NCBI GenBank assembly: GCA_963636305.1
Contig: CAVHKB010000001.1
Location: 1-42,018 of the forward strand
Source: Prevotella sp. P5-108
GTDB taxonomy: Bacteria; Bacteroidota; Bacteroidia; Bacteroidales; Paludibacteraceae
Length of the DNA: 42,018 nt
Direction of reading: 5' to 3'
The translations under genes and the position numbers were made by a program. Under the pieces are notes generated by a model. That model searched no databases. It was given only the letters and a program-made list of their open reading frames with translations, and was not told the origin of the DNA. Of this stretch, positions 26,671-41,840 are shown piece by piece (within the stretch, counting starts at the first letter, position 1; each line of letters starts with the position of its first letter).

Positions 26671-26678
26671 CAAAGGTA
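26671..26678 (-). promoter_or_regulatory. -7 element TACCTTTG (minus strand) for the NagB-like/GT2/SpoIID-like operon
   Basis: The reverse complement of CAAAGGTA matches TAnnTTTG, 78 nt upstream of start 26593. Confidence 0.55.
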
Positions 26679-27168: not shown

Positions 27169-28026
27169 ATGATTTTAATCGCTGACAGTGGTTCTACCAA
27201 AACCACATGGACACTCATGGCTGCTAACAGCCAAACTTCCGAGTTCTCAATGGACGGTATCAATCCTTTCTACCAGACTTCCGACGCCATTAAGAACTCT
27301 ATCGTCACACAACTCCTTCCCCAACTCTCCCACCTACTCTGGGCGGGGACTATAACTGACATCTATTTCTATGGTGCAGGATGTACACCCGAGAAAACCA
27401 AATTTGTCATATCTGCACTCGAAGGCTCGTTCAAAACTGCCAAAGCCCATGTCGAAAGTGATATGGTCGGTGCAGCAAGAGGACTGCTCGGGCGGACGCA
27501 AGGTATCGCCTGCATTCTTGGTACAGGCTCCAACTCCTGCCTCTACGACGGAGAAAAAATCATCAAGAATGTACCCGCACTCGGCTTTATTCTCGGCGAC
27601 GAAGGCAGCGGTGCTGTACTTGGCAAACGCCTCGTGGCAGATGTACTCAAAAATCAGTTGCCCGAACATATCAAAAACAAATTTCTTCAGCAATACAACC
27701 TCACGCAGGCGGAAATCATAGAGAATGTCTATCGCAAACCTTTCCCCAACCGATACCTCGCCTCTCTTTCCAAGTTCGCTGCCGAAAACATACAGGAAGA
27801 ATCCATCTACAACCTCGTTTACGAGCATTTCCGTCAGTTCGTCATCCGTAACCTCAAGCAGTATCCTTCTCTGCCCGTCGGATTTATCGGCTCCATTGCT
27901 TACTACTATGCCGATGTTCTCCGCAAGGTCATGAACGACAACAATATGCAAGTCGCACAAATACTCCAGTCGCCCATGCCAGGACTCGTGAAGTATCATG
28001 CACAAGATGCCAAACCGACTAACTGA
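27169..28026 (+). CDS. BadF/BadG/BcrA/BcrD-type ASKHA sugar kinase (GlcNAc / MurNAc kinase, MurK-like)
   Basis: 285 aa with MILIADSGSTKTTW (phosphate-1), ILGTGSNS (phosphate-2) and ILGDEGSGAVLG (adenosine motif). It sits directly upstream of murQ. Confidence 0.7.
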   Translation: MILIADSGSTKTTWTLMAANSQTSEFSMDGINPFYQTSDAIKNSIVTQLLPQLSHLLWAGTITDIYFYGAGCTPEKTKFVISALEGSFKTAKAHVESDMVGAARGLLGRTQGIACILGTGSNSCLYDGEKIIKNVPALGFILGDEGSGAVLGKRLVADVLKNQLPEHIKNKFLQQYNLTQAEIIENVYRKPFPNRYLASLSKFAAENIQEESIYNLVYEHFRQFVIRNLKQYPSLPVGFIGSIAYYYADVLRKVMNDNNMQVAQILQSPMPGLVKYHAQDAKPTN

Positions 28027-28033
28027 TAACGAT

Positions 28034-28852
28034 ATGTTTGCAAAAATAACCGAACAGCCCTCCCTACACGATAACCTCGACCAGAAATCTGTACACGAAC
28101 TATTGGTCGAAATGAACGAAGAGGACAAAAAAGTACCTCTCGCCGTCGAGAAAGCAATACCGCAGATAACCAAACTCGTCGAACAAATCGTACCACGAAT
28201 GAAACAGGGAGGACGAATCTTCTACCTTGGAGCAGGCACTTCAGGACGACTCGGCGTACTCGACGCAAGCGAAATACCACCTACCTTCGGTATGCCTCCT
28301 TCACTCGTCGTAGGACTCATCGCCGGTGGTGACACCGCCCTCCGTAATCCCGTCGAGAAAGCCGAAGACGACCTCGAAAGAGGATGGCAGGACCTCCAGA
28401 AATACAACATCAATTCCTCCGACATTCTCATCGGTATCGCCGCTTCAGGCACAACGCCCTATGTCATAGGCGCACTCCGACACGCACGCGAACAGGGAAT
28501 ACTCACCGCTTCTGTCTCCTGCAATCCCGACTCGCCCGTCGCAGCCGAAGCCGACATACCTATCGAGGCAATAGTAGGTCCCGAATTCGTTACAGGTAGC
28601 ACACGGCTCAAATCCGGCACCGCACAAAAACTCATCTGCAACATGATAACCACCACTACCATGATACAACTCGGACGAGTCAAAGGCAATCGGATGGTCA
28701 ATATGCAACTGACCAACAAGAAACTTGTCGACAGAGGAACCCGTATGCTCGTCGACGAACTCGGCATCGACTACGAACAGGCAAAGCATCTCCTGCTCAT
28801 TCACGGCTCTGTCAAAGACGCACTCGACGCCTGGCAACAACAGAAAAATTAA
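28034..28852 (+). CDS. murQ: N-acetylmuramic acid 6-phosphate etherase
   Basis: SIS-domain protein with YLGAGTSGRLGVLDASEIPPTFG, GIAASGTTPYV and the TGSTRLKSGTAQK blocks typical of MurQ. Start chosen at ATG 28034, 8 nt after the kinase stop. Confidence 0.85.
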   Translation: MFAKITEQPSLHDNLDQKSVHELLVEMNEEDKKVPLAVEKAIPQITKLVEQIVPRMKQGGRIFYLGAGTSGRLGVLDASEIPPTFGMPPSLVVGLIAGGDTALRNPVEKAEDDLERGWQDLQKYNINSSDILIGIAASGTTPYVIGALRHAREQGILTASVSCNPDSPVAAEADIPIEAIVGPEFVTGSTRLKSGTAQKLICNMITTTTMIQLGRVKGNRMVNMQLTNKKLVDRGTRMLVDELGIDYEQAKHLLLIHGSVKDALDAWQQQKN

Positions 28853-28889
28853 AATAAACAAACACCGAAAATACTATTATAGCCCGAAA

Positions 28890-28907
28890 ATATGTTGTAA
28901 AACATAT
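28890..28907. promoter_or_regulatory. Inverted repeat ATATGTT-GTAA-AACATAT, candidate operator upstream of the SusC promoter
   Basis: Perfect 7-bp arms with a 4-bp spacer, 33 nt upstream of the -7 box. No T-tract follows, so it is unlikely to be a terminator. Confidence 0.3.
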
Positions 28908-28939
28908 AATGATGGGGTATAATTCTCGTAAAATTGTAT

Positions 28940-28947
28940 TACCTTTG
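28940..28947 (+). promoter_or_regulatory. -7 element TACCTTTG for the SusC/SusD locus
   Basis: Exact TAnnTTTG match 72 nt upstream of ATG 29019. Confidence 0.55.
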
Positions 28948-29018
28948 CGACGAACTTTTTGGCAACCTTATGCGCTGTATAAGTAATCGCCTTAAGTTCT
29001 TTCAATTAACAAACCGTA

Positions 29019-32000
29019 ATGCGCATGAAAAAAACATTGCTCTTACTTGCTTGTGTTGCTTCAACCCTCTTCGCTTGGGCTGACATCACTGTTACAGGCA
29101 TAGTAACTTCCAAAGACGACGGACAACCCGTCATCGGGGCTACCGTCCTCGAAAAAGGAACTACCAATGGTACAATAACCGACTTCGACGGAAACTACCA
29201 ACTCAAAGTCGCCGACAAGGCTACACTCGTAGTCAGTTATGTCGGCATGAAAACACAAGAGGTCAAGGTTACAGGCATGAAGCATAATGTCGCACTCGCT
29301 ACAGAAGCCATCGCTATGGAAGAAGTAGTCGTCACCGCTATGGGCGTCGTACAAGAGAAAAAGCGAATGAATTTCGCAGTGCAGAATGTAACCTCCGAAT
29401 CTATCACCGCAAGCAAATCTGCTAACTTCGTCAACTCTCTGCAAGGGCAAATAGCAGGCGTCACTGTCACTAACTCAAGCAGTTCTCCTAACGCCGGCTC
29501 ACAAATCATCGTACGAGGCATATCCTCCATCAATACTGCCCAATCCAACGAACCTTTGTTCATCATGGATGGGGTCCCCTTAAGTGGAGGCGCATCTTCT
29601 GCTGCCGACATCAACCCTAACGACATCGAGAATGTAACCGTCCTCAAGGGTGCTGCGGCTTCTGCACTATACGGACAAGATGCTGCCAACGGCGTCATTA
29701 TGATTACAACCAAACGCGCACAAGCAGGTAAAATATCGGTCGCCGCTAATGCAAGTTGGCAGTTCGATACTCCCTACCGACTGCCAAATATTCAAAAAAG
29801 TTATATACCAGGCTCACAAGGTATCTATGTCGATAAAGCACAGGGAGGATGGGGTCCGTTGCTTAATCCTGGAGAGCAGATATATGATAACCTCCATAAC
29901 TTCTTCAACACAGGCTTCTATCACAAATACGATGTCAGCGTAACCGGCGGTACCGAGAAGTTCCAGGCTTATGCCTCCGCAAACTGGTCCAAAAACGACG
30001 GTATCATACCCAACGACTATAAGCAACGCTTTGGTGGACTCGTAAAAGCAACCTACAGCCCCGCTAAATGGGTCACCATCAATGCTTCTATCAATGTCAT
30101 GCAAAGCGACTCCCGCTCCACCTCCGCCGATGCAATCACAGGCACTTCAGCAATGAGCAGCCTCTATGGATGGTCAAATACAGATGATATAACCGACTAT
30201 CAACTCTCCACTGGATATCCGCGCTATATCTACTACAACGACTCCAAAAAATACAACTCCACCTATAGCCCGCTCTACGGTATCTACAACGACGGCGGAC
30301 AATCCACCTCCCTGCGTAATGTCATGAACGCTTCCGTCACATTCAAACCTGTCAAAGGGCTTGAAATCGTAGGACGCGTAGGTTACGACACCAGCAGTTC
30401 CACCTCCGAGACCTATGGGGTACCCCGTTGGGACGACTCCTATGTAACACAGTCCTATACCAAACCTACCGAACCATCAGATCCCGGCTCCACTGCTACA
30501 GCGGAAGAAAAAGCCGCCTACCAGGAGGCACTCAAAGAGTACAATACCAACCTCGCTCTCTACAACTCCTACCAGGACTATCTCAACGGCGCATATCAAA
30601 CCGACCCCTATCTCACAACCAACGACATCGCCAACATGGACAAAGCCAAACTCGGCAAGTATTCCTCCTCTGCCGGACGAAGCCAACTGCTTACTGCAGG
30701 CTTCATGGCAACTTACCGCTTGGACCTTCCAAAGGACTTCGGTATGGACTTCATGGCAGGTGGCGAGTTGAAGGCATCTAAGGGCTTCTCTATGACCAAC
30801 AGCGGTGTCGATTTCGTCATACCAGGTGTTTACTCCCTCTCCAATACTAACCCCAACGAGGTATATCTCACCGACCGTACACTCACACACTCGCAACGAC
30901 GCACCTTCGGCTACTACTACGAAGTTCGAGCCGACTACAAAGGACTTGCTTCGCTCTCTGTAACAGGACGATGGGACTGGTCCTCCACACTCAAGACTTC
31001 CCCCTACTTCTATCCGTCCGTAACAGCAGGTATCGTATTCTCTGAACTCATACCCGGACTCAATGAGACGAAAAACAACTGGTTCTCCTACGGTAAACTG
31101 CGGGGCAACTATGCAGTCGTAGGTAAAGATGCGCCAATCTATCTATTCGACCGACGCTACAAACAGTTCGCTAACTATCCCGACAACGGCTATGGTATCG
31201 ACCCTACACGCTCTTCGGCATCTGCCGATTTGCAGCCCGAAATGTCCTACTCATGGGAAATAGGTCTCGACCTCCGTTTCTTCGATAACCGTACACGCCT
31301 CGACATGGCATACTATTCCACCAAAGTCGATAACCAAATCGTAACCGTACGCGTCTCACCTGCCTCAGGCTATATCTTGCAAACCCGTAACGAAGGTGCC
31401 ATCCGTAATCAAGGTATGGAACTCACTTTGGAACAAGACATCATTCGCCGTAAGAATGTAAAGTGGACAGCAGCACTCAACTTCGGACTCAATCGCGGCA
31501 AGGTGGTCAGCCTGCCCGAGAATGTATCCGAGATAACGGGTCCCCAATACACCGACATCTTTACATCGGCTTACCTCGGTGGGTCCACCACAGGTCTTAC
31601 CGGTAAAGACTATCTGCGTACCGACGATGGCAGAATAATCTGCGATAGCGAAGGCTACCCGCAAATCAACCCCAACAAGAACCTCTATATCGGTAACCGC
31701 GAGGCGAAATTCTCTGCAGGTCTCCGTAGTACCCTCGATGTTTATGGCGTACAACTCTCTTTCTTGTTCGACGGACGGTTGGGAGGCGATGTGGTCAACA
31801 TAACGGGACGCTCCCTCATCTCTAACGGACAATCGGCTATGCTCGAGAAATATCGTGGACGGCAAGTTGTGTTCGATGGCGTCGTCGACGATGGCAATGG
31901 CAACTATGTTCCCAACACCAAGCCTATCACGCTCGACTATACCACCATCACCAACTATTTCTACAATGTGTCCTCCAACTTCATCGAAGATGGCTCCTAC

Positions 32001-32243
32001 ATACGGCTTAGTTACGTTACCGTAGGATACGATTTCGCACAACTCATGAAGTCGCAGAAAGTACTCAAAGGACTGAACCTCTCTTTCACGGCAAACAACC
32101 TTTTTGTACTCACTAAGTACACGGGAACCGACCCGCTCTGTAATGCGTCCACCTCTGGTGGCGGTACAGGCTCTGCAGGCGTCGATAACTATCCCGTGCC
32201 TTCCACAAGAAGTTATAATATATCCCTTAATGTTAAATTCTAA
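29019..32243 (+). CDS. SusC/RagA-family TonB-dependent outer-membrane transporter
   Basis: 1074 aa. Signal peptide, carboxypeptidase-regulatory-like domain (ITVTGIVTSKDDGQPVIGATV...DFDGNYQLKV), plug (NVTVLKGAAASALYGQDAANGVIMITTKR), and a C-terminal beta-barrel ending in F. There is no N-terminal STN signalling domain. ATG 29025 is an alternative start. Confidence 0.9.
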   Translation: MRMKKTLLLLACVASTLFAWADITVTGIVTSKDDGQPVIGATVLEKGTTNGTITDFDGNYQLKVADKATLVVSYVGMKTQEVKVTGMKHNVALATEAIAMEEVVVTAMGVVQEKKRMNFAVQNVTSESITASKSANFVNSLQGQIAGVTVTNSSSSPNAGSQIIVRGISSINTAQSNEPLFIMDGVPLSGGASSAADINPNDIENVTVLKGAAASALYGQDAANGVIMITTKRAQAGKISVAANASWQFDTPYRLPNIQKSYIPGSQGIYVDKAQGGWGPLLNPGEQIYDNLHNFFNTGFYHKYDVSVTGGTEKFQAYASANWSKNDGIIPNDYKQRFGGLVKATYSPAKWVTINASINVMQSDSRSTSADAITGTSAMSSLYGWSNTDDITDYQLSTGYPRYIYYNDSKKYNSTYSPLYGIYNDGGQSTSLRNVMNASVTFKPVKGLEIVGRVGYDTSSSTSETYGVPRWDDSYVTQSYTKPTEPSDPGSTATAEEKAAYQEALKEYNTNLALYNSYQDYLNGAYQTDPYLTTNDIANMDKAKLGKYSSSAGRSQLLTAGFMATYRLDLPKDFGMDFMAGGELKASKGFSMTNSGVDFVIPGVYSLSNTNPNEVYLTDRTLTHSQRRTFGYYYEVRADYKGLASLSVTGRWDWSSTLKTSPYFYPSVTAGIVFSELIPGLNETKNNWFSYGKLRGNYAVVGKDAPIYLFDRRYKQFANYPDNGYGIDPTRSSASADLQPEMSYSWEIGLDLRFFDNRTRLDMAYYSTKVDNQIVTVRVSPASGYILQTRNEGAIRNQGMELTLEQDIIRRKNVKWTAALNFGLNRGKVVSLPENVSEITGPQYTDIFTSAYLGGSTTGLTGKDYLRTDDGRIICDSEGYPQINPNKNLYIGNREAKFSAGLRSTLDVYGVQLSFLFDGRLGGDVVNITGRSLISNGQSAMLEKYRGRQVVFDGVVDDGNGNYVPNTKPITLDYTTITNYFYNVSSNFIEDGSYIRLSYVTVGYDFAQLMKSQKVLKGLNLSFTANNLFVLTKYTGTDPLCNASTSGGGTGSAGVDNYPVPSTRSYNISLNVKF

Positions 32244-32257
32244 TTCCGTTGCGCTAT

Positions 32258-34057
32258 ATGAAATCAATCAACTATCTCAGTGTATGTATGGCGTCAGTCC
32301 TGCTCTTGACTGGTTGCAACGACTTCCTCGATGTCAACACAACCAAAGATGACCCCACTACCGTAACGGTCGACCAAATACTGCCGACTCTCTGCTTCTA
32401 TGCCTCACAGATATGCTACGACCATGCCGAATATGGCGTCTATATGTCACAGGCACTCACCACAGGCGATAAGTCACAAACAGGATCCTACCCCTATAGT
32501 CAGGGATGGGAATTCCTCAGCGTCAACCGTCACCCTATGTGGAGACGGCATTTCTACGACCTCGGGGCAAATGCCAACGCCATGTTCGAACTGACGGCTA
32601 AAAACGGCTCGAAAAACTACGAACTCATCGGGCGTACACTCGTGCTGCAATCCACCATGTTCACCACCGATGTGTTTGCCGATATGCCTCGCTCCCAAGC
32701 CTATACCGTCACTTCTCCCAAGTACGACTCGCAACAGGAAATCTACGATTGGATGTTCTCCGAAGCCGACCAACTCGTCAGCCTCTACCAAGACCCTGCT
32801 TGGACCAACGGCGCACAAGCACTGCCTATAAGCGAAAAATCCGACCGTATCTACAAAGGCGATATGAATAAATGGGCTGCCTACACCAAAGCACTCCGTT
32901 GCCGTCTGTGGCTGCGCAAACTTCCTAACTGGGACAACACACCCACCACCTGCCAACAACTCGTGGCTATGGTCGACGATGTACTCAACGACCCCAACTG
33001 GGAAGAACCTCTCTACAACTACCCTGGCGGTAAAACAGAGTCCAACTGCCCGTGGGGACCTGCTGCTCCGAAAATAAATTCGTGGGAAAGTCGTAACAAC
33101 CGACTTGCTTCCTCCATACCGACCAAGTTCTTCGCCTATGCTGTCTTGGGAGGATATACGGGCAGTTCTCTCAACACATCCGACTATCGCTTCGCATTGG
33201 ACCCCCGTGCCGAAATGATAATGACTCCCCGCACCAACAAAGATAATAGTCAGGCATTGCGCTGGTTGGAGAGCAACATAGGTAAGGATGAAAACAATAA
33301 ATATACCTACTACCCCGACCTCTATGCCACCGATGCCGGAACCAATCCTTATACCAAAAACGATGGCTATATCGCTCTGATAACCACCGAAGAACTGCTC
33401 TTCATCAAAGCCGAAGCACTCTATTGGATGAACCAGAAAGCCGAGGCATACAATGTCACAAAGCAAGCCGTCGAACGCAATATGCAACGCTATGGCATCA
33501 ATGTAGGAGCATTGACCAAAAAAGAACAAAAACGCTACGACCTCTTCATGTCTGTCCGTCTTCCGGGTGAGTCCGTGTTCACCATTGCTGACCTCATGCA
33601 GCAGAAATTTGTGGCTATGTACTTGCAACCCGAACAGTGGACCGACCTCCGCCGCTATAACTATTCCAGCAAAACCAACGGCATATTCTACGATGGCGTT
33701 CCTGTCTATACTGTGTCAACCTGTCTGACAAAGCACAGTCCGATTGCTCTGTCACCTTCCAACTTCACCACCGAGTATAGCCTGCGCCGACCCTACAACC
33801 TCTATGCTGCCTATTGGGACCAACCCGACTGCTACGAAGACCCTTCCACCAAAGCCGTCTATTCGCCTAACGCTTGGGTCAATCGCCTGAACCCCGATAC
33901 CGAAACGGAAACAAAATACAACAAGAAAGAACTCATCCGTATCGGCGCGTGCGATGCGGCAGGAAATGTCGACTACCATTGGATGCAGAAACACATGATT
34001 TGGGCAATGAAGAACTCTTCGGTCTGCACCGTATCTAACAATATAGAATGGAAATAA
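32258..34057 (+). CDS. SusD/RagB-family nutrient-binding outer-membrane lipoprotein
   Basis: Lies immediately downstream of SusC. Lipobox LLLTGC followed by NDFLDVN, typical of SusD N-termini. ATG 32249 is an alternative start. Confidence 0.85.
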   Translation: MKSINYLSVCMASVLLLTGCNDFLDVNTTKDDPTTVTVDQILPTLCFYASQICYDHAEYGVYMSQALTTGDKSQTGSYPYSQGWEFLSVNRHPMWRRHFYDLGANANAMFELTAKNGSKNYELIGRTLVLQSTMFTTDVFADMPRSQAYTVTSPKYDSQQEIYDWMFSEADQLVSLYQDPAWTNGAQALPISEKSDRIYKGDMNKWAAYTKALRCRLWLRKLPNWDNTPTTCQQLVAMVDDVLNDPNWEEPLYNYPGGKTESNCPWGPAAPKINSWESRNNRLASSIPTKFFAYAVLGGYTGSSLNTSDYRFALDPRAEMIMTPRTNKDNSQALRWLESNIGKDENNKYTYYPDLYATDAGTNPYTKNDGYIALITTEELLFIKAEALYWMNQKAEAYNVTKQAVERNMQRYGINVGALTKKEQKRYDLFMSVRLPGESVFTIADLMQQKFVAMYLQPEQWTDLRRYNYSSKTNGIFYDGVPVYTVSTCLTKHSPIALSPSNFTTEYSLRRPYNLYAAYWDQPDCYEDPSTKAVYSPNAWVNRLNPDTETETKYNKKELIRIGACDAAGNVDYHWMQKHMIWAMKNSSVCTVSNNIEWK

Positions 34058-34071
34058 CTTCTCTTACGACT

Positions 34072-34929
34072 ATGAAACACTCCCATATATTCGTTCTCGC
34101 ATTCGCTCTGCTCGCTTGCACTGCGTGCGATAAACATGACTTCATCGACGACCTCGTCATCACTGGTAATGTCGGACCTCAACCCTATTGGGTGGTCGAG
34201 AGTTCTGTCGTAACGGCAGGTGCCGATGTACCGTTCACTGCGCAGTACTATACAAGCGTCAATGGCGTTTCTATCGACCGCTCCGAAGTGTGGTACAATG
34301 TCACCGAAAACCTCGAGAAAGTGGTTACTTGCCCGTGGACAAAAAGTTTCACGTACTCCATCTCTAAAATCACCGCTTCCGAAATGCGTATCTCCCAAAA
34401 GATAAAGACTTTCCCTCATAAGGATGTTGCCGTATGGAACGACTCCATCCATGCCTACTATTTCGAAGGGACTTTCCCCGTAAGCAGTACACTCGCTTCT
34501 TTCAAATGGGAAAAACCTGCACACTACGACAACGAGAACTTTCTGAAGTATTTCGGCGAAGACTATAAACAGCATTTCAAAGATAGTCTTTATAACCTCC
34601 TTAAATACGACGATTTCAGTAATATCATTAAAGGAGCAGGTCTGCGCGATAATTTCCAGGAGTTTACCGACTCCACTTTCGATGCCAATACCAATCAGTG
34701 GGTACGACACTTCAAGTGGAACGCCGACTCCACCGACACGCCTGTTCCTGAAAAAGTAACCGAACTCTATCAGGATAGCGTTTCTTTCGAACAACTGATT
34801 TTCAATTCCGGTGAAAACTGCTACGACATCACCTACAAGCGTACCTACCAGATACGCGCACTCCTCCGTGTTTACGACGACCGAAATGTCTATGGTACTA
34901 CGGTGGCTAAAGATATAGAAATCAACTGA
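34072..34929 (+). CDS. Lipoprotein of unknown function (in the position of a SusE/F-like surface glycan-binding protein)
   Basis: Start at ATG 34072 (MKHSHIFVLAFALLACTAC, signal peptide plus lipobox). I recognise no catalytic motif. Confidence 0.6.
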   Translation: MKHSHIFVLAFALLACTACDKHDFIDDLVITGNVGPQPYWVVESSVVTAGADVPFTAQYYTSVNGVSIDRSEVWYNVTENLEKVVTCPWTKSFTYSISKITASEMRISQKIKTFPHKDVAVWNDSIHAYYFEGTFPVSSTLASFKWEKPAHYDNENFLKYFGEDYKQHFKDSLYNLLKYDDFSNIIKGAGLRDNFQEFTDSTFDANTNQWVRHFKWNADSTDTPVPEKVTELYQDSVSFEQLIFNSGENCYDITYKRTYQIRALLRVYDDRNVYGTTVAKDIEIN

Positions 34930-34945
34930 TAAATCCTGTTTTGCT

Positions 34946-36643: not shown

Positions 36644-36646
36644 ACA

Positions 36647-39211
36647 ATGAATACAACAGTGAAGAGAATCTGCCGCATACTACCTCTTTTGCTATCTGTT
36701 CTTTCAGTGCAGATGCTCTTTGCTGCGGCTCCTAAACGCGAGTTTCGTGCGGCTTGGATATCAACCGTCTGGGCTATCGATTGGCCCAAGAACTCGTGGG
36801 GAAGTGCCGACAACGCTGCCGCACAGCAACAGGAACTCATTCAGATACTCGATTCCCTCCAAATGGCGAATATGAACGCCGCCTGCTTGCAGGTACGGGG
36901 TTTTTCCGATGCAATGTATCGCTCCAAATACGAACCATGGAGCAAGTATCTCACCGGTACACGAGGAGGTGAACCTACCTACGACCCGCTCGCTCTCGCC
37001 GTGCAGGAAGCACACAACCGGGGCATGGAACTCCATGTGTGGCTCAACCCCTACCGCTATGCCTCCTCCAACGAGACCTATGGCAACCTGCCAACCGACT
37101 ACTCGCAGACTCACCCCGAGTGGCTCATGCGCTATGGCGATGCCACTATCCTCAACCCCGGTCTCCCCGAAGTAAGGGAACGCATTGCGGCTGTCGTGGC
37201 GGATATACTCGAGAACTACGATGTCGATGGCGTACTCTTCGACGACTATTTCTATCTCTCCGGTACACCCATGTCTATGGACGCCGACCTCTATGCCGCC
37301 AACAATCCGCAGGGACTGTCCCAAGCCGAATGGCGACGTGAGAATGTCAACGAAATGGTGCGCCTCGTTCACGACACCATCAAGGCTGTCAAACCTTGGG
37401 TCACGTTTGGTATAGGACCTGCACCGCAAGTCGCTTCATCCGATGAACATGCTGCCAAGTATGGTGTCGAGAAAATGCCGTTCTCCGATTGGCAGTACAA
37501 TGGCATCTACTCCGACCCGCTCGCATGGCTCAGCCGTGCTACAATTGACTACATCTCCCCGCAGATGTATTGGAACATCAACTCCTCCTATAGTTTTGCA
37601 GTCTTCTCTGCCTGGTGGTCAAAAGTCAGCAACCAGTTCGGGCGGCATTTCTATGCAAGCCACTCTGTCGAGGGTGCAGGGGTGTCCTATCCTGTTACCG
37701 AAACATCCGACCAGGTAACAGTCCTGCGTAACGACGACCGCAACTCCGCTACTGGCTCTGTCTTCTTTTCCATCTACAAGGCTATGCTGGCTGACGGCTT
37801 CATTCGTAACTTGCGCAATACGGTCTATCGCTATCCCGCTCTCCCACCCATGAAAGCATGGGAACGCTCCAGCGAGGCTCTCTATGTCAGCAACATAACC
37901 TATTCGGGCAGTACGGGCAAACTGTCGTGGACTGCACCTGCCGAAAACCTGCGTTATGCAGTCTACTGCATTCCCAAAGACTATCAATCGCGCCGTGGAG
38001 TGTTCTTCTCGCCCGAGAACTTGGTGGGCTTCACCTATACCAACTCCTGCAAAGTGCCTCTCAAACAAAACTACACCTATGCCGTAGCCGTTCTCGACCG
38101 CTATGGAAACGAATATCCTCCTGTGGTGCGCGATGCTGCAAAGGCTGTTCTCTCCGCTCCCCAATTGCTTGTCCCTGCCGACGGCGCAGTGCAACTGGTG
38201 CCGTCCACCTTCAGTTGGACTACGGCTTCTGGAGTCGATTCCTACCTCTTGCAAGTGGCAACCGACCAGGAGTTCAACAACCTCATCGAGTCCTACGAAA
38301 CAGCCGACACTACTTTCTTCTCTGGCAAAGTAGCCCGTATCGCCGATGGAGGTACCTACTACTGGCGGCTTATTGCACGAGGAGCAAATGCCGACGACCT
38401 GCCTACTGCTGCCCACAGGTTCACGGCGAAGATGTTCTCCATACTGTCCCCTGCCAACACACAGACCGATGTATCGCTTGTGCCTGTCATCTCTTGCGAT
38501 AGCGTCGAGGAATCCGATGTGCGCTACAACTTCGAGATTAGCCGCTCTGTTCAGATGCGCACCGAAGATATGGTATATACGGCACAAACAACGGTCCCCC
38601 GTTGCGCTGTACCCGATTCCACTTTGGCACAGACCACCACCTACTATCTCCGTTGCACCGCCTCCTACGGCACAGTGCAGATAGTGTCCGACATCTCCTC
38701 TTTCACCACGATGTCCCTCCCCGTGCCTACCCCTGTCATCCTGTCGCCTGCCGACAATGAGGTGGTCCGTTCTGCCGACCTCCATGTCGCATGGGAGAAG
38801 CAGAACGCCCGTTCATTCCGAGTCGAGTTATCTACAGTCACAAGTTTTGCTCCTCGCAACACCAAGACACTGAACACCGATGCCTATACCTACAATGCAA
38901 CCTATACCAATCTCTCAGAAGGCGACTATTACCTCCGTGTGCGTGCCTCGTCTGTCGATGGTTGGGTCACCTCCGATATGCTCCGTGTCACCATACAACC
39001 GGCTACTGCCTGCGAGGCTGCCCGCGAGAACAATTGGTATGTGTCCAATGGAGCAATAGTGGCAGAGCAGCCAATGCCTTACTCTGTCTATAACCTGCTG
39101 GGCATTGTGCTGGCAAAAGGAACAACCAACATAGGAACAACCGCTCTGCCCGCAGTGCAGGGCGTGCTGATTGTGCAGGTCGGAACAACAAAAAGAATAG
39201 TGGTTATGTAG
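36647..39211 (+). CDS. GHL10 (DUF187/YngK-like, glycoside-hydrolase-like family 10) protein with three Ig/Fn3-like repeats and a T9SS C-terminal sorting domain
   Basis: Signal peptide, then REFRAAWISTVWAIDWP and later blocks (ELHVWLNPYR, DGVLFDDYFY) typical of the family. Three ~90-aa internal repeats span about 38156-39017. The C-terminal tail PYSVYNLLGIVLAKG...GVLIVQVGTTKRIVVM (about 39029-39208) resembles the Por/T9SS CTD. Confidence 0.75.
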   Translation: MNTTVKRICRILPLLLSVLSVQMLFAAAPKREFRAAWISTVWAIDWPKNSWGSADNAAAQQQELIQILDSLQMANMNAACLQVRGFSDAMYRSKYEPWSKYLTGTRGGEPTYDPLALAVQEAHNRGMELHVWLNPYRYASSNETYGNLPTDYSQTHPEWLMRYGDATILNPGLPEVRERIAAVVADILENYDVDGVLFDDYFYLSGTPMSMDADLYAANNPQGLSQAEWRRENVNEMVRLVHDTIKAVKPWVTFGIGPAPQVASSDEHAAKYGVEKMPFSDWQYNGIYSDPLAWLSRATIDYISPQMYWNINSSYSFAVFSAWWSKVSNQFGRHFYASHSVEGAGVSYPVTETSDQVTVLRNDDRNSATGSVFFSIYKAMLADGFIRNLRNTVYRYPALPPMKAWERSSEALYVSNITYSGSTGKLSWTAPAENLRYAVYCIPKDYQSRRGVFFSPENLVGFTYTNSCKVPLKQNYTYAVAVLDRYGNEYPPVVRDAAKAVLSAPQLLVPADGAVQLVPSTFSWTTASGVDSYLLQVATDQEFNNLIESYETADTTFFSGKVARIADGGTYYWRLIARGANADDLPTAAHRFTAKMFSILSPANTQTDVSLVPVISCDSVEESDVRYNFEISRSVQMRTEDMVYTAQTTVPRCAVPDSTLAQTTTYYLRCTASYGTVQIVSDISSFTTMSLPVPTPVILSPADNEVVRSADLHVAWEKQNARSFRVELSTVTSFAPRNTKTLNTDAYTYNATYTNLSEGDYYLRVRASSVDGWVTSDMLRVTIQPATACEAARENNWYVSNGAIVAEQPMPYSVYNLLGIVLAKGTTNIGTTALPAVQGVLIVQVGTTKRIVVM

Positions 39212-39311
39212 AAAAGAAATAATATAAGATAACAAATTAACCGTTGTGGAGTACCGCTTGACGGGTCTTGCGGAACAAAACGACAATTTACTAACATTAA
39301 TCTATCTATTT

Positions 39312-41840
39312 ATGAAAAAATTAACAGTATTGTGTAGCGCGCTCTTGTTGGCGGCTACCTCATTCGCGGCTGTTGAGTACGTCCTCCCCGACGGAGCCGT
39401 CACCAACGACTACGGATGGACAAGCAAGAAAGACATGTACGAGGCTCTGAATGCAGATTGGAACACATTCTCTGGGGCTACTACAACATGGAAAGCCTAC
39501 GAAGAACAATTGGGAGTAGGAAATTCTAATGGAGGTATTCCTACCTCTGTTCCTAATGCTGTAAACGAGAAAACTATATTGCAGTTCTTTGCAGATGATA
39601 CTTATAAAGCAAAATGGGGATGGTTGCCCGCATACTTGGATTCTGTGGCAAAGAAACAATATAAAAAAGGTGTTGCTGCAGACGGAACTAAAACATTGCC
39701 ATCTTCAGACGTTGGGTCAATGCGCTTTGGTCTCGGGAACTTCTTTGGCGAAGACAAAAATCACACAACCGATTGGCTTGATGCTGTTGATATGTCAAAT
39801 GGTGAGGCTCTCTTGGCAGCATACCAACCCGTTTGGAAACATGCTTATGCCAATCCTACCGAAATCGCAGAAGGTGAGTTCACACTCAATGCTCCTTACA
39901 AAGAGGGTGAATCTTTCCGTGGCTGGTACGACAACCAAGAAGGCTCGGGTACTCCTATCACCAAGATAACCTCTGAAACCACCGGTAAACTCTATGCTTG
40001 CTTTGGCGAGTATATCAACACGGTGGCTGAAGTGCTTGCTCTCGCTGATGGCACTGAAACCAAAGTGAAAGGTACGGTTACCTACACTGCAGGTGACAAC
40101 TTCTGGATTCAAGACGCTTCAGGCGCCATCCTTTGCTACGGTAAAAACAATGGCGTGGCTAATGGCGACGAAGTAACCCTCAGTGGTAATTTTGTGGCTG
40201 ATTTCAATGGTTCGCCCGAACTGAACAACGCAACTGTTATCAGCAAAGTGGCGGGTACGGCTGTTAATCCTACCGAAGTTACACTTCCTCAACTGGTGGC
40301 TGACGAGGCTTCATATCTCAATAAGTTGGTTGCCGTTAAGGGCGTTAAAATTGTTTCTTATGAAGGCGACTACAATACACCTTATGTTTCCGATGGTATC
40401 AATAAAATAGCGTTGTACAAATATACGGGTGTAACAGTAGATAAGTACCCTGTAGGCACGCAAATCAACTTCAAGGCTGTTTTCTCTGTCTATAAGAGTG
40501 GAGATACCAAAGAATTCCAGTTCCGTGGCGAAGCCGAATGGATTGAGGCTTCCGCTGCTGCTGTAAAAGATGACTACGCATATCCTGCTCGTGGCGAAAA
40601 TGGCGAATATACCCTCGTAAACAATTGGATCTATTCTGTCAAGTTAGGTAACTATGCCGACAATCGTCCTGGCGAAGATGGCAATGTTCGTGGTATGGCT
40701 GCAAAAGATGGCAAGATGTATTTCATCGACCGTGGAACATCTACCCTCCAGGTTTACGATGGTGCTACTGGCAAGAAATTAGATCCTATCACCATCACAG
40801 GCGACCATCTCTTCCAAGTGGAAACAATCGACGAGACTGGGGCTTCTAAGTGGGAAAGTGCTGTAACTCTTCCTTTCAACGATATAAAGGTGGATAATAA
40901 AGGCAATTTCCTGATTGGCGCATGCCTTACCTCTTCGCAAACATTCTTCATCTACAAGGTTGACCTGGCAACAGGTGCTGCTACCGAAGTCATCAAAGAG
41001 CGTCTTTGGGATAACACCGAAGAGGAATTCGACAAAATCTCTTATCGTTTCGATGCATTTGGTGTATATGGCGATGTTGATACCCATGCAGTTATCATGG
41101 CACAAGATGCCAATTCAATGACGGCATTCAAGTGGGTCATCGACAATGGTGTTGCTGCCAAAGCAACAAAGGTGGTTCTTTATGTTGACCCTGCTTCTGA
41201 TAACTCTTATCTTATCAACGACGGTGCAATGATTGCAAATCCTGGAACTGCTCCTCAAATATTCCCTGTCGACGACAACTATTTCTATTTGGATGGCAAT
41301 GCTACTCTGCCTACTCTGTTCAATATGGATGGTACACTGGCTGACGACTTCAAGAACTGCGCTGCAGGCATCCAAATAGGTAACAACGAAGGCGATACTT
41401 GCAAATTGAATCAAGGACACAATGGCTTGGCTGAGTTCCAAGTAGGCGACGAGTACTTCCTCGTAATGGCTGCTACCAATACTGCAGGTACTCCTTCTTC
41501 TGCTTTTGCACTCTATAAGTATAAAGATGCCTCCAAGTCCTTTGCCGATATGACTCCTCTGTGGTTCTTCCCGAACAACGGTATGAGTTTTTCAAATAGT
41601 GTCAACGGATTCCGTTCGGCTGTGCCTTCTGTCGATGTAAAAGACAATGTGGCTACCATCTACTTGTACACAGGTAATTGTGGCTTCGGTGTTTACACAT
41701 TCACAGGTGTAAAGGGTACAGGTTTCAACGAGGTAATTGGCGAGAAAGCCGATAATGTTCAAAAGGTTATGGAGAACGGTCAAATCTATATCCTGAAAGA
41801 CGGCGTTCGCTATAATGTATTAGGTACAGTGGTGAAGTAA
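39312..41840 (+). CDS. Large secreted protein of unknown function (Listeria-Bacteroides-repeat-like segment, OB-fold-like segment, beta-propeller-like C-terminal half)
   Basis: Start at ATG 39312 (MKKLTVLCSALLLAATSFA signal peptide), 842 aa. The FTLNAPYKEGESFRGWYDNQEGSGTPI repeat-like motif lies at about 39876-40004. The tail ENGQIYILKDGVRYNVLGTVVK may be a sorting motif. A strong terminator follows. Confidence 0.6.
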   Translation: MKKLTVLCSALLLAATSFAAVEYVLPDGAVTNDYGWTSKKDMYEALNADWNTFSGATTTWKAYEEQLGVGNSNGGIPTSVPNAVNEKTILQFFADDTYKAKWGWLPAYLDSVAKKQYKKGVAADGTKTLPSSDVGSMRFGLGNFFGEDKNHTTDWLDAVDMSNGEALLAAYQPVWKHAYANPTEIAEGEFTLNAPYKEGESFRGWYDNQEGSGTPITKITSETTGKLYACFGEYINTVAEVLALADGTETKVKGTVTYTAGDNFWIQDASGAILCYGKNNGVANGDEVTLSGNFVADFNGSPELNNATVISKVAGTAVNPTEVTLPQLVADEASYLNKLVAVKGVKIVSYEGDYNTPYVSDGINKIALYKYTGVTVDKYPVGTQINFKAVFSVYKSGDTKEFQFRGEAEWIEASAAAVKDDYAYPARGENGEYTLVNNWIYSVKLGNYADNRPGEDGNVRGMAAKDGKMYFIDRGTSTLQVYDGATGKKLDPITITGDHLFQVETIDETGASKWESAVTLPFNDIKVDNKGNFLIGACLTSSQTFFIYKVDLATGAATEVIKERLWDNTEEEFDKISYRFDAFGVYGDVDTHAVIMAQDANSMTAFKWVIDNGVAAKATKVVLYVDPASDNSYLINDGAMIANPGTAPQIFPVDDNYFYLDGNATLPTLFNMDGTLADDFKNCAAGIQIGNNEGDTCKLNQGHNGLAEFQVGDEYFLVMAATNTAGTPSSAFALYKYKDASKSFADMTPLWFFPNNGMSFSNSVNGFRSAVPSVDVKDNVATIYLYTGNCGFGVYTFTGVKGTGFNEVIGEKADNVQKVMENGQIYILKDGVRYNVLGTVVK

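What the first reader, a model, noticed from the sequence alone, without database searches (positions are those of the whole stretch)
27169..41840. MurNAc catabolism genes adjoin a regulator-less SusC/SusD locus whose only enzyme candidate is a T9SS-tailed GHL10 protein, a candidate peptidoglycan / MurNAc-glycan utilisation locus
The MurK-like kinase and murQ are followed 166 nt later, on the same strand, by SusC/SusD. After those come two lipoproteins of unknown function, a GHL10 (DUF187/YngK-like) protein and an 842-aa secreted protein. I cannot recognise any classical GH, PL or CE signature. I also see no hybrid two-component system, SusR, or ECF-sigma/anti-sigma pair, and SusC lacks the STN signalling domain. 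The window also holds a NamZ-like exo-muramidase, a D-lactate-dehydrogenase-like enzyme and the SpoIID-like operon. The simplest unifying guess is capture and import of cell-wall-derived glycans (its own or from neighbours). A PUL dedicated to peptidoglycan fragments would be notable. No inner-membrane MurNAc or anhydromuropeptide transporter (MurT- or AmpG-type) lies in the window.
Basis: inference. Interest (0 to 1): 0.7.

Follow-up and report, generated by a model that had tools for sequence, protein, structure and literature searches.

The report
Candidate peptidoglycan-harvesting SusC/SusD locus
A gut Bacteroidales bacterium carries an outer-membrane sugar-import gene cluster, fused to the genes that break down the cell-wall sugar MurNAc, that most likely lets it cut up and eat the cell walls of other bacteria; this route has been predicted but never demonstrated.

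Summary
murK and murQ (27169-28852) are followed 166 nt later, on the same strand, by susC, susD, two lipoproteins, an 854-aa GHL10 protein and an 842-aa secreted protein (29019-41840). The window holds no regulator, no STN domain, no classical CAZyme and no inner-membrane muropeptide transporter.

The peptidoglycan reading gains strong comparative support:
- The six-gene core keeps its order in about 80 related species, mostly Paludibacteraceae.
- In 57 of 65 informative species it lies next to MurNAc or peptidoglycan genes, in at least five different arrangements.
- In 17 species murQ and susC are only 27-43 nt apart with no promoter motif, which implies one operon.
- The GHL10 domain matches C. 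difficile Cwp19, a proven peptidoglycan lytic transglycosylase (E = 2e-75, about 40% identity). Nine of Cwp19's 13 proposed active-site residues are invariant in the family, and the window protein keeps 11.

The other proteins look non-enzymatic or have no known fold. The T9SS tail of this GHL10 is only weakly detectable. In most relatives a NAGPA phosphodiester glycosidase follows the core; here the contig ends first.

One preprint already predicts a similar "murein" PUL in a flavobacterial symbiont, and none has been tested. Verdict: real, probably a peptidoglycan-foraging PUL, and a new variant of a known kind.

The parts
27099..27106 (+). Bacteroidetes-type promoter -7 motif TACCTTTG, 62 nt upstream of murK
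   Evidence: Read from the sequence. The same octamer lies before NamZ (214-221) and before susC. The consensus TAnnTTTG is from my own knowledge of Bacteroides promoters.
27169..28026 (+). MurNAc kinase, MurK type (BadF/BcrAD ATPase fold), 285 aa
   Evidence: phmmer against PDB: T. forsythia MurK 8oqw/8ow9 E = 2e-84, paralogue K1058 (8oqk) 2e-74, BT 1zxo 1.5e-88. S97-D98-M99 align with MurK T94-D95-M96, so the catalytic Asp is kept. The residues over the lactyl pocket are small: P-A-L at 136-138, where MurK has S133-P134-L135.
27998..28852 (+). MurNAc-6-phosphate etherase MurQ, 284 aa
   Evidence: NCBIfam PRK05441 381 bits (cutoff 168); TIGR00274 321 bits (cutoff 302).
28940..28947 (+). Promoter-like TACCTTTG in the 166-nt murQ-susC spacer
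   Evidence: No terminator-like hairpin was found on the + strand in the spacer. Relatives with 27-43 nt spacers lack the motif.
29019..32243 (+). SusC-type TonB-dependent transporter, 1074 aa, no STN domain
   Evidence: TIGR04056 616 bits, TIGR04057 signature, CarboxypepD_reg + Plug + barrel.
32249..34057 (+). SusD-family lipoprotein, 602 aa (lipobox LLTGC, Cys23 invariant)
   Evidence: PF12771, PF12741 and PF07980. 2279 homologues at E <= 1e-10, and the best 120 are at least 60% identical. Alignment A1.
34048..34929 (+). Surface lipoprotein L293 (probable start 34072, 285 aa), unknown fold; candidate glycan-binding protein
   Evidence: No Pfam, NCBIfam or PDB sequence hit. AF2 model pLDDT 86.7: beta-sandwich plus helices. 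No PDB neighbour, best TM 0.26. The family has only 128 clusters in 1.84e9 proteins. Present in every complete related locus.
34946..36643 (+). Surface lipoprotein, 565 aa: PKD domain plus uncharacterised C-terminal region (Cys20 invariant)
   Evidence: PKD_4 E = 4e-12. Profile against PDB hits only PKD domains. No relation to P842 by hhalign.
36647..39211 (+). Secreted GHL10 enzyme, 854 aa: signal peptide, GHL10 TIM barrel (aa 30-390 = 36734-37816), Ig/FN3-like repeats, CTD-like end (39014-39208). Predicted peptidoglycan lytic transglycosylase.
   Evidence: PF02638 E = 1e-58. Cwp19 5oq2 E = 2e-75. W37, Q82, W132, R137, D199-D200-Y201, Q306 and Y308 are invariant in 73 family members; Ser338 replaces Cwp19 Gly328, so there is no second carboxylate. 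CTD: TIGR04183 E = 0.005.
39312..41840 (+). Secreted 842-aa protein: helical domain, Flg_new repeat, beta-barrel domains, beta-propeller (aa 433-798), short C-terminal tail ENGQIYILKDGVRYNVLGTVVK
   Evidence: AF2 pLDDT 87.0. Best fold match is the DUF4623 protein 4ftd (E = 7e-13), followed by NHL and WD40 propellers. Orthologues carry a T9SS CTD: the family profile hits gingipain CTDs at E = 1e-5.
41865..41889 (+). Terminator-like hairpin GGCTGCC-CCAAA-GGCAGCC followed by TTTTTT, 25 nt after the last stop codon
   Evidence: Read from the sequence.
24611..26701 (-). Divergent neighbour: fused NagB-like deaminase + PIG-L de-N-acetylase (real start probably near 26593)
   Evidence: PRK02122 983 bits; PF01182 + PF02585. 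Conserved divergent from murK in 42 loci.
20834..24633 (-). GT2 glycosyltransferase (23137-24633) and DUF4922-SpoIID/LytB fusion (20834-23182)
   Evidence: They correspond to the Gtf and LytB genes of the T. forsythia Tanf_08345-08385 operon.
271..4318 (+). NamZ exo-beta-N-acetylmuramidase (271-1506) and D-lactate-dehydrogenase-like FAD/4Fe-4S/CCG protein (1457-4318), 23 kb from the PUL
   Evidence: NamZ_N E = 2e-82, NamZ_C 3e-40; FAD-oxidase_C 3e-51. In L038 and L063 the same pair, plus a second GHL10, lies directly before susC.

Best explanation
This is a polysaccharide-utilisation locus for exogenous peptidoglycan, meaning the cell walls of dead or neighbouring bacteria. It is physically joined to the cytoplasmic MurNAc catabolic genes.

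Proposed path:
1. The 854-aa GHL10 enzyme is exported by Sec, then probably by the T9SS through its C-terminal domain. At the cell surface it cuts the MurNAc-beta-1,4-GlcNAc bonds of foreign glycan strands as a Cwp19-type lytic transglycosylase.
2. SusD, the two lipoproteins and the 842-aa propeller protein hold the fragments.
3. SusC imports them using TonB.
4. In the periplasm NamZ (271-1506) and enzymes encoded elsewhere trim them to MurNAc, GlcNAc and disaccharides.
5. An inner-membrane carrier not encoded in this window takes them in. In relatives an AmpG-family permease sits next to susC.
6. MurK makes MurNAc-6-P.
7. MurQ splits MurNAc-6-P into GlcNAc-6-P and D-lactate.
8. The NagB/PIG-L fusion would turn GlcNAc-6-P into fructose-6-P, and the Dld-like enzyme would oxidise the D-lactate.

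Shown: gene identities, conserved synteny, operon-like spacing in relatives, and active-site conservation.
Inferred: substrate, enzyme activity, cellular location, binding roles and co-regulation.
For: 1. Conserved core. susC-susD-L293-PKD565-GHL10-P842 keeps its order in essentially all complete loci among 80 GTDB species representatives.

2. Neighbourhood. Of 65 loci with at least 3 kb upstream of susC:
- 47 have murQ directly upstream on the same strand.
- 2 have NamZ + Dld-like + a second GHL10 directly upstream.
- 2 have NamZ/MurQ/MurK divergent from susC (L036 also has a GH3).
- 2 have murQ(-)/GT2/AmpG-family(+) immediately before susC.
- 3 have AmpG-family + SpoIID + GT2.
- 1 has only GT2, SpoIID or NagB/PIG-L genes upstream.
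- 8 have none.

Several different arrangements with the same functional partners argue against mere inherited adjacency.

3. Operon spacing. The murQ-susC gap is 27-43 nt in 17 species. It lacks a TAnnTTTG motif, and in the loci inspected the SusC signal peptide starts right after it.

4. Enzyme.
- The GHL10 domain matches Cwp19 at E = 2e-75, about 40% identity over 343 aligned positions.
- Cwp19 releases 1,6-anhydro-muropeptides from peptidoglycan (PMC6016235).
- Nine of its 13 proposed active-site residues are invariant in 73 orthologues; the window protein itself keeps 11.
- The position of the missing second carboxylate stays non-acidic (PMC5765458).

5. Downstream chemistry encoded around the locus: MurK, MurQ, NagB/PIG-L, and NamZ with the Dld-like enzyme.

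6. Independent precedent. A Urechidicola PUL has two susCD pairs plus murQ, nagB, ampG, ampD, dacA, GH3, GH18, GH171 and a 'GH10' seen only by NCBI domain search, not by dbCAN.

7. Biological need. T. forsythia grows on intact peptidoglycan, yet no outer-membrane uptake route is named in the papers read.
Against: - No experiment exists for any gene of this family.
- The core locus has no amidase, endopeptidase, NagZ or lysozyme-type GH. The window has no inner-membrane transporter and no AnmK for the anhydro ends.
- susC has its own promoter-like motif here, 166 nt after murQ, so co-transcription is not shown for this genome.
- 8 of 65 species carry the same PUL beside housekeeping genes such as KsgA, CorA/MgtE and GtrA-like.
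- Most evidence comes from one family, Paludibacteraceae, so the counts are not independent events.
- Another GHL10 protein, DogH of Deinococcus, was reported to release maltose from starch (PMC9967864). Cwp19 itself is 13-66 times slower than lysozyme.
- The three non-enzymatic proteins have no recognisable peptidoglycan-binding domain such as LysM, SH3b or SPOR.
Confidence: 0.6

Rival explanations
1. The PUL targets some other glycan, such as a GlcNAc-rich exopolysaccharide like PNAG, chitin-like material, or a host or capsular glycan. Its position beside murK/murQ would then be an inherited accident of genome organisation in Paludibacteraceae.
For: - The core has no amidase, NagZ or lysozyme family, and no known peptidoglycan-binding module.
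- 8 of 65 species have the PUL without peptidoglycan-gene neighbours.
- susC has its own promoter-like motif in this genome.
- The closest structural relative of Cwp19 is the PNAG-processing PgaB.
- DogH, another GHL10 protein, was reported to act on starch.
- The NAGPA gene that follows the core in 50 of 55 relatives has no established link to peptidoglycan.
Against: - At least five different gene arrangements all bring MurNAc or peptidoglycan genes next to the core.
- 27-43 nt murQ-susC spacers occur in 17 species.
- MurQ and NamZ have no known substrate other than MurNAc compounds.
- The GHL10 domain is about 40% identical to the peptidoglycan-active Cwp19 and keeps its active-site constellation.
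- A similar gene combination occurs in an unrelated flavobacterial PUL.
Confidence: 0.2
2. The machinery is the same, but its purpose is salvage, not food. The locus would scavenge MurNAc-containing fragments to build the cell's own wall, as in the MurNAc auxotroph Tannerella forsythia.
For: - The neighbouring GT2, SpoIID/LytB, NamZ, MurK and MurQ genes mirror the T. forsythia Tanf_08345-08385 scavenging operon.
- T. forsythia uses intact peptidoglycan as a MurNAc source.
Against: - MurQ, NagB/PIG-L and a D-lactate-dehydrogenase-like enzyme channel MurNAc into glycolysis rather than into UDP-MurNAc.
- No AmgK/MurU-type anabolic genes were seen in the window.
- Whether this organism lacks murA/murB could not be tested.
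Confidence: 0.15
3. The locus recycles the cell's own peptidoglycan turnover products, or the GHL10 acts as an autolysin or remodelling enzyme. SusCD would merely recapture fragments that leak out.
For: - Cwp19 is an autolysin in C. difficile.
- SpoIID/LytB-type and NamZ enzymes serve recycling in other bacteria.
Against: - A T9SS or otherwise secreted enzyme, and surface lipoproteins with acidic residues after the lipid-modified Cys, act outside the outer membrane.
- A TonB-dependent importer with four accessory surface proteins is an expensive way to recapture leakage.
- Orthologues of GHL10 and P842 carry clear T9SS CTDs.
Confidence: 0.05

Closest known systems
Tannerella forsythia peptidoglycan-scavenging operon Tanf_08345-08385 (xanthan-lyase-like, 2 Gtf, LytB, AmpG, NamZ1, MurT, MurK, MurQ)
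   Same: MurK is about 60% identical by eye in the alignment, 286 bits. MurQ, NamZ, a SpoIID/LytB-type protein and a GT2 are present in the window. Both are Bacteroidales, and both concern external MurNAc sources.
   Different: The window has no MurT or AmpG. The genes are split into divergent operons, and NamZ lies 23 kb away. Above all, a SusC/SusD importer with surface proteins and a GHL10 enzyme is attached; none is described for T. forsythia, whose outer-membrane uptake step is unassigned in the papers read.
Cwp19 of Clostridioides difficile (GHL10 lytic transglycosylase; PDB 5OQ2/5OQ3)
   Same: GHL10 TIM barrel, E = 2e-75, about 40% identity. W36, Q77, W127, R132, D195-D196-Y197, Q295 and Y297 are conserved, and there is no second catalytic carboxylate.
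   Different: Cwp19 is an S-layer autolysin anchored by CWB2 repeats in a Gram-positive cell. Here the domain is fused to Ig/FN3-like repeats and a T9SS-type tail and sits in a nutrient-import locus. S250 is Gly and G328 is Ser.
Predicted 'murein' PUL of the Urechidicola symbiont of Idas mussels (bioRxiv 10.1101/2023.02.09.527947, Fig. 5)
   Same: susCD genes together with murQ, nagB, ampG, GH171 (the NamZ family) and a 'GH10' detected only by NCBI domain search, not by dbCAN. The authors note that most of these genes act in murein metabolism.
   Different: It is a different class (Flavobacteriia). That locus has two susCD pairs, a DeoR regulator, AmpD amidase, DacA, L-Ala-D/L-Glu epimerase, GH3 and GH18. 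It is not reported to hold the L293, PKD565, P842 or NAGPA genes. It is also only a genome annotation; I could not compare sequences.
Classical Bacteroidetes PULs, for example the starch Sus locus, and the Flavobacterium johnsoniae chitin locus whose chitinase ChiA is secreted by the T9SS (from my own knowledge)
   Same: A SusC/SusD pair, surface lipoproteins downstream of susD, and a surface or secreted endo-acting enzyme. Use of T9SS cargo within a PUL resembles the chitin locus.
   Different: No CAZy-classified enzyme and no linked regulator (HTCS, SusR or ECF/anti-sigma). The catabolic partners are MurNAc-specific. Peptidoglycan-active GH23/24/25/73 families are statistically under-represented in PULs (PMC6499787).
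Bacillus subtilis murQ-murR-murP-amiE-nagZ-namZ cluster
   Same: Links NamZ, MurQ and uptake of MurNAc in one locus for peptidoglycan recovery.
   Different: It is a Gram-positive system with PTS uptake (MurP) and a MurR regulator; an amidase and NagZ are included, and there is no outer-membrane step.

Membership tests
SusC/SusD polysaccharide utilisation locus (PUL) | Adjacent susC-like TonB-dependent transporter and susD-like lipoprotein genes | tested here: met
   TIGR04056 616 bits and the TIGR04057 signature; PF12771, PF12741 and PF07980; the genes are 5 nt apart.
SusC/SusD polysaccharide utilisation locus (PUL) | Co-localised glycan-degrading enzyme(s) | tested here: inconclusive
   Only GHL10 (PF02638), which is not a CAZy GH family. 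No other GH, PL or CE domain was found. The fold models of L293 and P842 do not look enzymatic. The C-terminal region of PKD565 was not modelled.
SusC/SusD polysaccharide utilisation locus (PUL) | Linked sensor or regulator (HTCS, SusR, ECF sigma/anti-sigma with an STN-bearing SusC) | tested here: not met
   No regulator domain was found in the window, and SusC has no STN. A GntR/FCD gene lies nearby only in L046. In T. forsythia the regulator GppX is encoded elsewhere.
SusC/SusD polysaccharide utilisation locus (PUL) | Substrate-induced expression and requirement for growth on the glycan | not testable with these tools
   Needs transcriptomics and genetics in a cultured relative.
GHL10 / Cwp19-type peptidoglycan lytic transglycosylase | GHL10 (PF02638) TIM-barrel domain | tested here: met
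   E = 1.2e-58 over aa 32-332; Cwp19 structure sequence E = 2e-75 over aa 30-390.
GHL10 / Cwp19-type peptidoglycan lytic transglycosylase | Proposed active-site residues of Cwp19 (W36, Q77, W127, R132, D195, D196, Y197, S250, Q295, Y297, G328, F367, S368) | tested here: met
   11 of 13 are identical in the window protein (S250 to G, G328 to S). Nine are invariant in 73 orthologues.
GHL10 / Cwp19-type peptidoglycan lytic transglycosylase | Formation of 1,6-anhydroMurNAc products from peptidoglycan | not testable with these tools
   Shown only for Cwp19 (PMC6016235). Another family member was reported to act on starch.
MurK/MurQ MurNAc catabolic pathway (Bacteroidetes type) | MurQ etherase equivalog | tested here: met
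   TIGR00274 321 bits against a cutoff of 302; PRK05441 381 bits.
MurK/MurQ MurNAc catabolic pathway (Bacteroidetes type) | MurK: catalytic Asp and small residues over the lactyl-ether pocket (S133-P134-L135 in T. forsythia MurK) | tested here: met
   S97-D98-M99 align with MurK T94-D95-M96, so the catalytic Asp is kept. P-A-L at 136-138 is small and non-acidic, although not identical to S-P-L. The protein is closer to MurK (286 bits) than to K1058 (254 bits).
MurK/MurQ MurNAc catabolic pathway (Bacteroidetes type) | Dedicated inner-membrane transporter (MurT or AmpG) in the locus | tested here: not met
   None in the window. An AmpG-family MFS (TIGR00901, E = 6e-45) is adjacent in L019, L021, L029, L045 and L046.
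T9SS cargo protein | C-terminal type-A sorting domain (TIGR04183 / PF18962) | tested here: inconclusive
   Window GHL10: TIGR04183 E = 0.005, 16.7 bits against a cutoff of 23; no Pfam hit. 25 of 48 orthologue C-termini hit PF18962, best E = 1.4e-10. Window P842 has only a 25-aa tail that aligns with the first strands of the CTD.
T9SS cargo protein | T9SS machinery genes in the genome | not testable with these tools
   Only this 42-kb contig is available.

The most novel reading that the evidence does not exclude
Bacteroidales would possess a dedicated, widespread outer-membrane system for eating other bacteria's cell walls. A T9SS-displayed GHL10 lytic transglycosylase shreds foreign sacculi, a set of previously unknown surface proteins (L293, PKD565, the P842 propeller) captures the strands, and SusCD imports them straight into a co-transcribed MurK/MurQ pathway. 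In most species a NAGPA-type phosphodiester glycosidase, and in a few an SGNH esterase, would first strip the C6 substituents of MurNAc (teichoic-acid linkage units, O-acetyl groups) that block lytic transglycosylases. This would be the missing outer-membrane step of peptidoglycan scavenging in the phylum, and a route by which gut and rumen Bacteroidales shape the pool of immunoactive muropeptides.
Probability: 0.45. Interest if true: 0.8.

Novelty: new variant of a known kind. Interest (0 to 1): 0.64.

Why it matters
Peptidoglycan is among the most abundant polymers in dense microbial habitats such as the gut, the rumen and anaerobic digesters. How Bacteroidota take it across the outer membrane is not established. 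The T. forsythia papers I read leave that step unassigned. Known peptidoglycan-active CAZyme families are under-represented in PULs.

This locus offers a concrete, conserved and testable candidate for that step: at least 57 species show the peptidoglycan-gene linkage. It would do four things:
- Assign a physiological role to GHL10 (DUF187) proteins in Gram-negative bacteria.
- Define three new families of surface proteins.
- Show that PUL catalogues based on CAZy families miss this kind of locus.
- Bear on necromass turnover and on the supply of NOD-active muropeptides in animal guts.

Tried and rejected
- Shared operator. I compared the regions upstream of NamZ, murK and susC for common 11-mers. 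Only the general promoter octamer TACCTTTG and low-complexity repeats are shared, so I found no evidence for a common regulator site.
- RNA elements. Rfam at gathering thresholds found nothing in the window.
- Sigma-70 and terminator scan. Matches were no more frequent than in shuffles. It is not informative for Bacteroidetes promoters, but it shows no + strand terminator between murQ and susC.
- L293. No PDB sequence match, alone or as a profile, and no structural neighbour for a confident AF2 model. No function can be assigned.
- P842. No PDB sequence match. The profile hits only T9SS CTDs. The fold search gives DUF4623 and generic beta-propellers, so no enzyme fold was recognised.
- PKD565. 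Only the PKD domain is recognised. hhalign against the P842 family is negative, probability 1.9%.
- Pfam on the window GHL10 C-terminus gave no Por_Secre_tail hit. Only NCBIfam gave a sub-threshold hit.
- Short murQ-susC gaps as an artefact. I suspected my ORF caller and checked nine loci, eight of them with short gaps. The SusC signal peptides start right after the spacer, so those gaps are real.
- Literature. Searches for 'peptidoglycan utilization locus', PUL + MurQ, GH171 + PUL and peptidoglycan + SusC + NamZ found no characterised system. The only hit is one annotation-level precedent.
- MurNAc auxotrophy (absence of murA/murB) could not be tested from a 42-kb contig.

Full report
**1. 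What is in the window**

The window is a complete 42,018-bp contig of an NCBI assembly. The 842-aa product of its last gene is 100% identical to protein P0121, whose longest contig is 42,018 bp. The closest relatives are uncultured Bacteroidales and Paludibacteraceae from gut, rumen and digester metagenomes.

The stretch named in the finding holds eight tightly packed genes on the + strand:

| Coordinates | Product | Evidence |
|---|---|---|
| 27169-28026 | kinase | see section 4 |
| 27998-28852 | MurQ | TIGR00274 321 bits, cutoff 302 |
| 29019-32243 | SusC | TIGR04056 616 bits; CarboxypepD_reg + Plug + barrel, no STN |
| 32249-34057 | SusD | PF12771, PF12741, PF07980 |
| 34048-34929 | lipoprotein "L293" | no family match |
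| 34946-36643 | PKD lipoprotein "PKD565" | PKD_4 E = 4e-12 |
| 36647-39211 | GHL10 protein | PF02638 E = 1e-58 |
| 39312-41840 | secreted protein "P842" | only a weak Flg_new repeat |

Gaps inside susC to GHL10 are 3-16 nt, or the genes overlap. The murQ-susC gap is 166 nt, and the GHL10-P842 gap is 100 nt.

A hairpin followed by a T-run lies 25 nt after the last stop codon (41865-41889).

The rest of the window holds:
- NamZ (271-1506).
- An FAD/4Fe-4S/CCG D-lactate-dehydrogenase-like protein (1457-4318).
- Housekeeping genes.
- On the minus strand and divergent from murK: a NagB + PIG-L fusion (24611-26701), a GT2 (23137-24633) and a DUF4922-SpoIID/LytB fusion (20834-23182).

The Pfam scans found no regulator, no MFS or PTS transporter, and no classical GH, PL or CE domain.

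**2. Is the adjacency meaningful?**

I searched with SusD. It has 2279 homologues at E <= 1e-10, and the best 120 are at least 60% identical. Three contexts fetched by exact protein look-up (73%, 69% and 63% identity) showed the same gene order. They also showed a further conserved downstream gene: a NAGPA (PF09992) protein with a T9SS sorting domain.

A scan of one genome per GTDB species found 488 relatives, of which I kept the best 80 loci. tblastn and clustering of all ORFs gave these results:
- The core susC-susD-L293-PKD565-GHL10-P842 keeps its order in essentially every complete locus.
- NAGPA follows the core in 50 of 55 loci that extend far enough. It does not in the two closest relatives. 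In L006, threonyl-tRNA synthetase follows instead.

Among 65 species with at least 3 kb upstream of susC:

| Species | Upstream neighbours |
|---|---|
| 47 | murQ immediately upstream on the same strand, mostly with murK and the divergent NagB/PIG-L, GT2 and SpoIID genes |
| 2 | NamZ, the Dld-like gene and a second 513-aa GHL10 lipoprotein directly before susC (L038, L063) |
| 2 | NamZ, MurQ and MurK divergent from susC; L036 also has a GH3 and a PIG-L-like gene (L036, L042) |
| 2 | murQ(-), GT2(+) and an AmpG-family permease(+) directly before susC (L045 Dysgonamonadaceae, L046 Symbiothrix; TIGR00901 E = 6e-45) |
| 3 | AmpG-family + SpoIID + GT2 |
| 1 | only GT2, SpoIID or NagB/PIG-L genes |
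| 8 | only housekeeping genes |

The species are related, so the counts are not independent. Even so, five distinct arrangements that each bring MurNAc or peptidoglycan genes to the same PUL are hard to explain by inheritance alone.

In three species an SGNH esterase (GxDLY + Lipase_GDSL_3) is inserted between murQ and susC.

**3. Transcription**

In this genome a Bacteroidetes-type -7 motif (TACCTTTG) precedes murK (27099-27106), susC (28940-28947) and NamZ (214-221). No terminator-like hairpin lies between murQ and susC on the + strand. The PUL could therefore be read from its own promoter, by read-through from murK/murQ, or both.

In 17 relatives the murQ-susC spacer is only 27-43 nt and lacks the motif. 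In the loci I inspected, the SusC signal peptide (MKKILFVL...) starts immediately after the spacer. In those species murK-murQ-susC-... is almost certainly one operon.

I found no shared operator-like motif and no Rfam element.

**4. The enzymes**

*GHL10.* The GHL10 domain (aa 30-390) matches the crystallised catalytic domain of C. difficile Cwp19 at E = 2e-75, with about 40% identity over 343 aligned positions.
- Cwp19 is the first characterised GHL10 protein. It lyses Micrococcus cells (PMC5765458).
- It releases 1,6-anhydro-muropeptides, so it is a lytic transglycosylase (PMC6016235).
- Of its 13 proposed active-site residues, W36, Q77, W127, R132, D195, D196, Y197, Q295 and Y297 are invariant in 73 PUL-associated orthologues.
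- The window protein has Gly for S250 and Ser for G328. As in Cwp19, no second catalytic carboxylate is present.
- A caution: another GHL10 protein, DogH, was reported to release maltose from starch.

*MurK.* The kinase matches T. forsythia MurK at E = 2e-84 (8oqw/8ow9, recognisable by its S-P-L motif). It is less similar to the paralogue K1058.
- S97-D98-M99 align with MurK T94-D95-M96, so the catalytic Asp is kept.
- It has small residues (P-A-L) where MurK makes room for the lactyl ether (PMC10465942).

*Downstream steps.* MurQ yields GlcNAc-6-P and D-lactate (established pathway knowledge). The divergent NagB/PIG-L fusion (PRK02122, 983 bits) and the Dld-like protein are plausible consumers of these two products; this is inference.

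**5. The non-enzymatic proteins**

- SusD, L293 and PKD565 have lipoboxes with invariant cysteines followed by acidic residues. This fits surface exposure, which is inference.
- L293 gives a confident AF2 model (pLDDT 86.7): a beta-sandwich with a helical insert. It has no structural neighbour in the PDB, best TM 0.26. Its family comprises only 128 clusters among 1.84 billion representatives.
- P842 (pLDDT 87.0) has a helical domain, a Flg_new repeat, beta-barrel domains and a beta-propeller. Its best match is the uncharacterised DUF4623 protein 4ftd, followed by NHL and WD40 propellers.
- PKD565 has a PKD domain and an unassigned C-terminal region of about 400 aa.
- None contains a known peptidoglycan-binding module. 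I regard them as candidate surface glycan-binding proteins, by analogy with other PULs.

**6. Secretion signals**

- The C-terminus of the window's GHL10 scores below threshold for TIGR04183 (E = 0.005) and not at all with Pfam. It aligns with orthologue C-termini, of which 25 of 48 are clear Por_Secre_tail domains.
- The P842 family profile hits gingipain CTD structures.
- In the gut and rumen lineage, which includes this window's P842, the CTD is replaced by a conserved tail of about 25 aa (...ENGQIYILKDGVRYNVLG...).
- 'T9SS-tailed' is therefore plausible for GHL10 but not proven.

**7. Comparison with what is known**

- The neighbourhood mirrors the T. forsythia peptidoglycan-scavenging operon: Gtf, LytB, AmpG, NamZ1, MurT, MurK, MurQ.
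- T. forsythia grows on intact peptidoglycan, and peptide-free strands are proposed to be processed in its periplasm. The papers I read name no outer-membrane uptake system.
- A survey of 13,537 PULs found peptidoglycan-active GH23/24/25/73 families strongly under-represented. GHL10 is not a CAZy family, so CAZyme-based PUL surveys probably record no enzyme for this locus.
- The only precedent I found is an annotation-level note of a Urechidicola PUL with two susCD pairs, murQ, nagB, ampG, ampD, dacA, GH3, GH18, GH171 and a 'GH10' detected only by NCBI domain search, not by dbCAN.
- I found no characterised peptidoglycan PUL in the library.

**8. Verdict**

The most likely function is capture, surface cleavage and SusCD import of exogenous peptidoglycan, feeding a MurK/MurQ catabolic route. 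My confidence is about 0.6.

Main gaps:
- No experiment on any gene of the family.
- No amidase, NagZ or inner-membrane carrier in this locus.
- Unknown roles for three conserved proteins.
- Uncertain co-regulation in this particular genome.

It is a new variant of a known kind: a PUL with an unusual, non-CAZy lytic enzyme and a cell-wall substrate. It is of above-average interest because it makes the outer-membrane step of peptidoglycan scavenging in Bacteroidota directly testable.

Noticed in passing
window 95-158, 9060-9097, 18135-18173, 26845-26889, 26907-26942, 41973-42017: Several intergenic tandem arrays all have an 11-nt period. TAGGGAAGAGG x5.8 lies before NamZ. ATATAGGACGA x3.5 occurs at two sites, and a related copy lies at the very end of the contig, so the assembly probably broke there. 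TAACCGAAGCA x4.1 (perfect copies) and TCCAATAACAA x3.3 lie in the long divergent region between nagB/PIG-L and murK. They could be phased binding sites or a genome-wide repeat family.
   Followed up: partly
window 41757-41837 (P842 C-terminus); L010, L013, L002, L027 and others (GHL10 C-termini): In gut and rumen lineages the T9SS C-terminal domain of both secreted PUL proteins is replaced, at the same alignment position, by a conserved tail of about 25 aa (consensus K-V-x-E-N-G-Q-[VI]-x-I-x-[KR]-[ND]-G-x-x-Y-x-x-L-G). It aligns with the first strands of the CTD. It may be a minimal or alternative sorting signal.
   Followed up: partly
window about 4500-5500: GC skew of the + strand flips from about +0.25 to between -0.1 and -0.25 near position 5000, inside the DUF4301 gene. 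It stays negative for the remaining 37 kb whatever the gene orientation. A maximum of cumulative skew is the signature of a replication terminus.
   Followed up: no
L001-L004 and most of L009-L084, directly after the P842 orthologue (for example L048:18834-21290): A NAGPA 'phosphodiester glycosidase' (PF09992) protein with a clear T9SS sorting domain follows the core PUL in 50 of 55 species. It does not in the nearest relatives L006 and L007, and the window's contig ends before any such gene. It may remove GlcNAc-1-phosphate-linked polymers from MurNAc C6; this is speculation.
   Followed up: partly
L022, L023 (5589-6704), L028: An SGNH esterase (GxDLY + Lipase_GDSL_3) is inserted between murQ and susC in three species. 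It is a candidate peptidoglycan de-O-acetylase, which would unblock a lytic transglycosylase; this is inference.
   Followed up: no
L038:5108-6649, L063: A second, shorter GHL10 paralogue lies between NamZ/Dld-like and susC. It is 513 aa, has the lipobox LLIGC, scores PF02638 E = 1e-80, and keeps Gly at the Cwp19 G328 position.
   Followed up: partly
window 34048-34929: L293 belongs to a very small family: 128 clusters at 50% identity among 1.84e9 proteins. Its AF2 model is confident but has no PDB neighbour. It may represent a new fold of surface lipoprotein.
   Followed up: yes
L002, L009-L013, L027, L028, L057, L062, L074, L075 (P842 orthologues of 1270-1540 aa): In many rumen species the P842 orthologue is extended to about 1300-1500 aa by extra N-terminal Flg_new/Flg_new_2 (InlB B-repeat) and LRR-like modules. 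In another clade it is halved to about 480 aa, matching about half of P842.
   Followed up: no
window 20834-26701 (minus strand): Two gene fusions are conserved with the locus. NagB-like deaminase + PIG-L deacetylase may be a combined NagA/NagB analogue. DUF4922, a nucleotidyl-transferase-like domain with a weak Ap4A_phos_N hit, is fused to SpoIID/LytB, and a 498-aa GT2 lies between the two fusions. Their role in MurNAc metabolism is unknown, as it is for the Gtf/LytB genes of T. forsythia.
   Followed up: no
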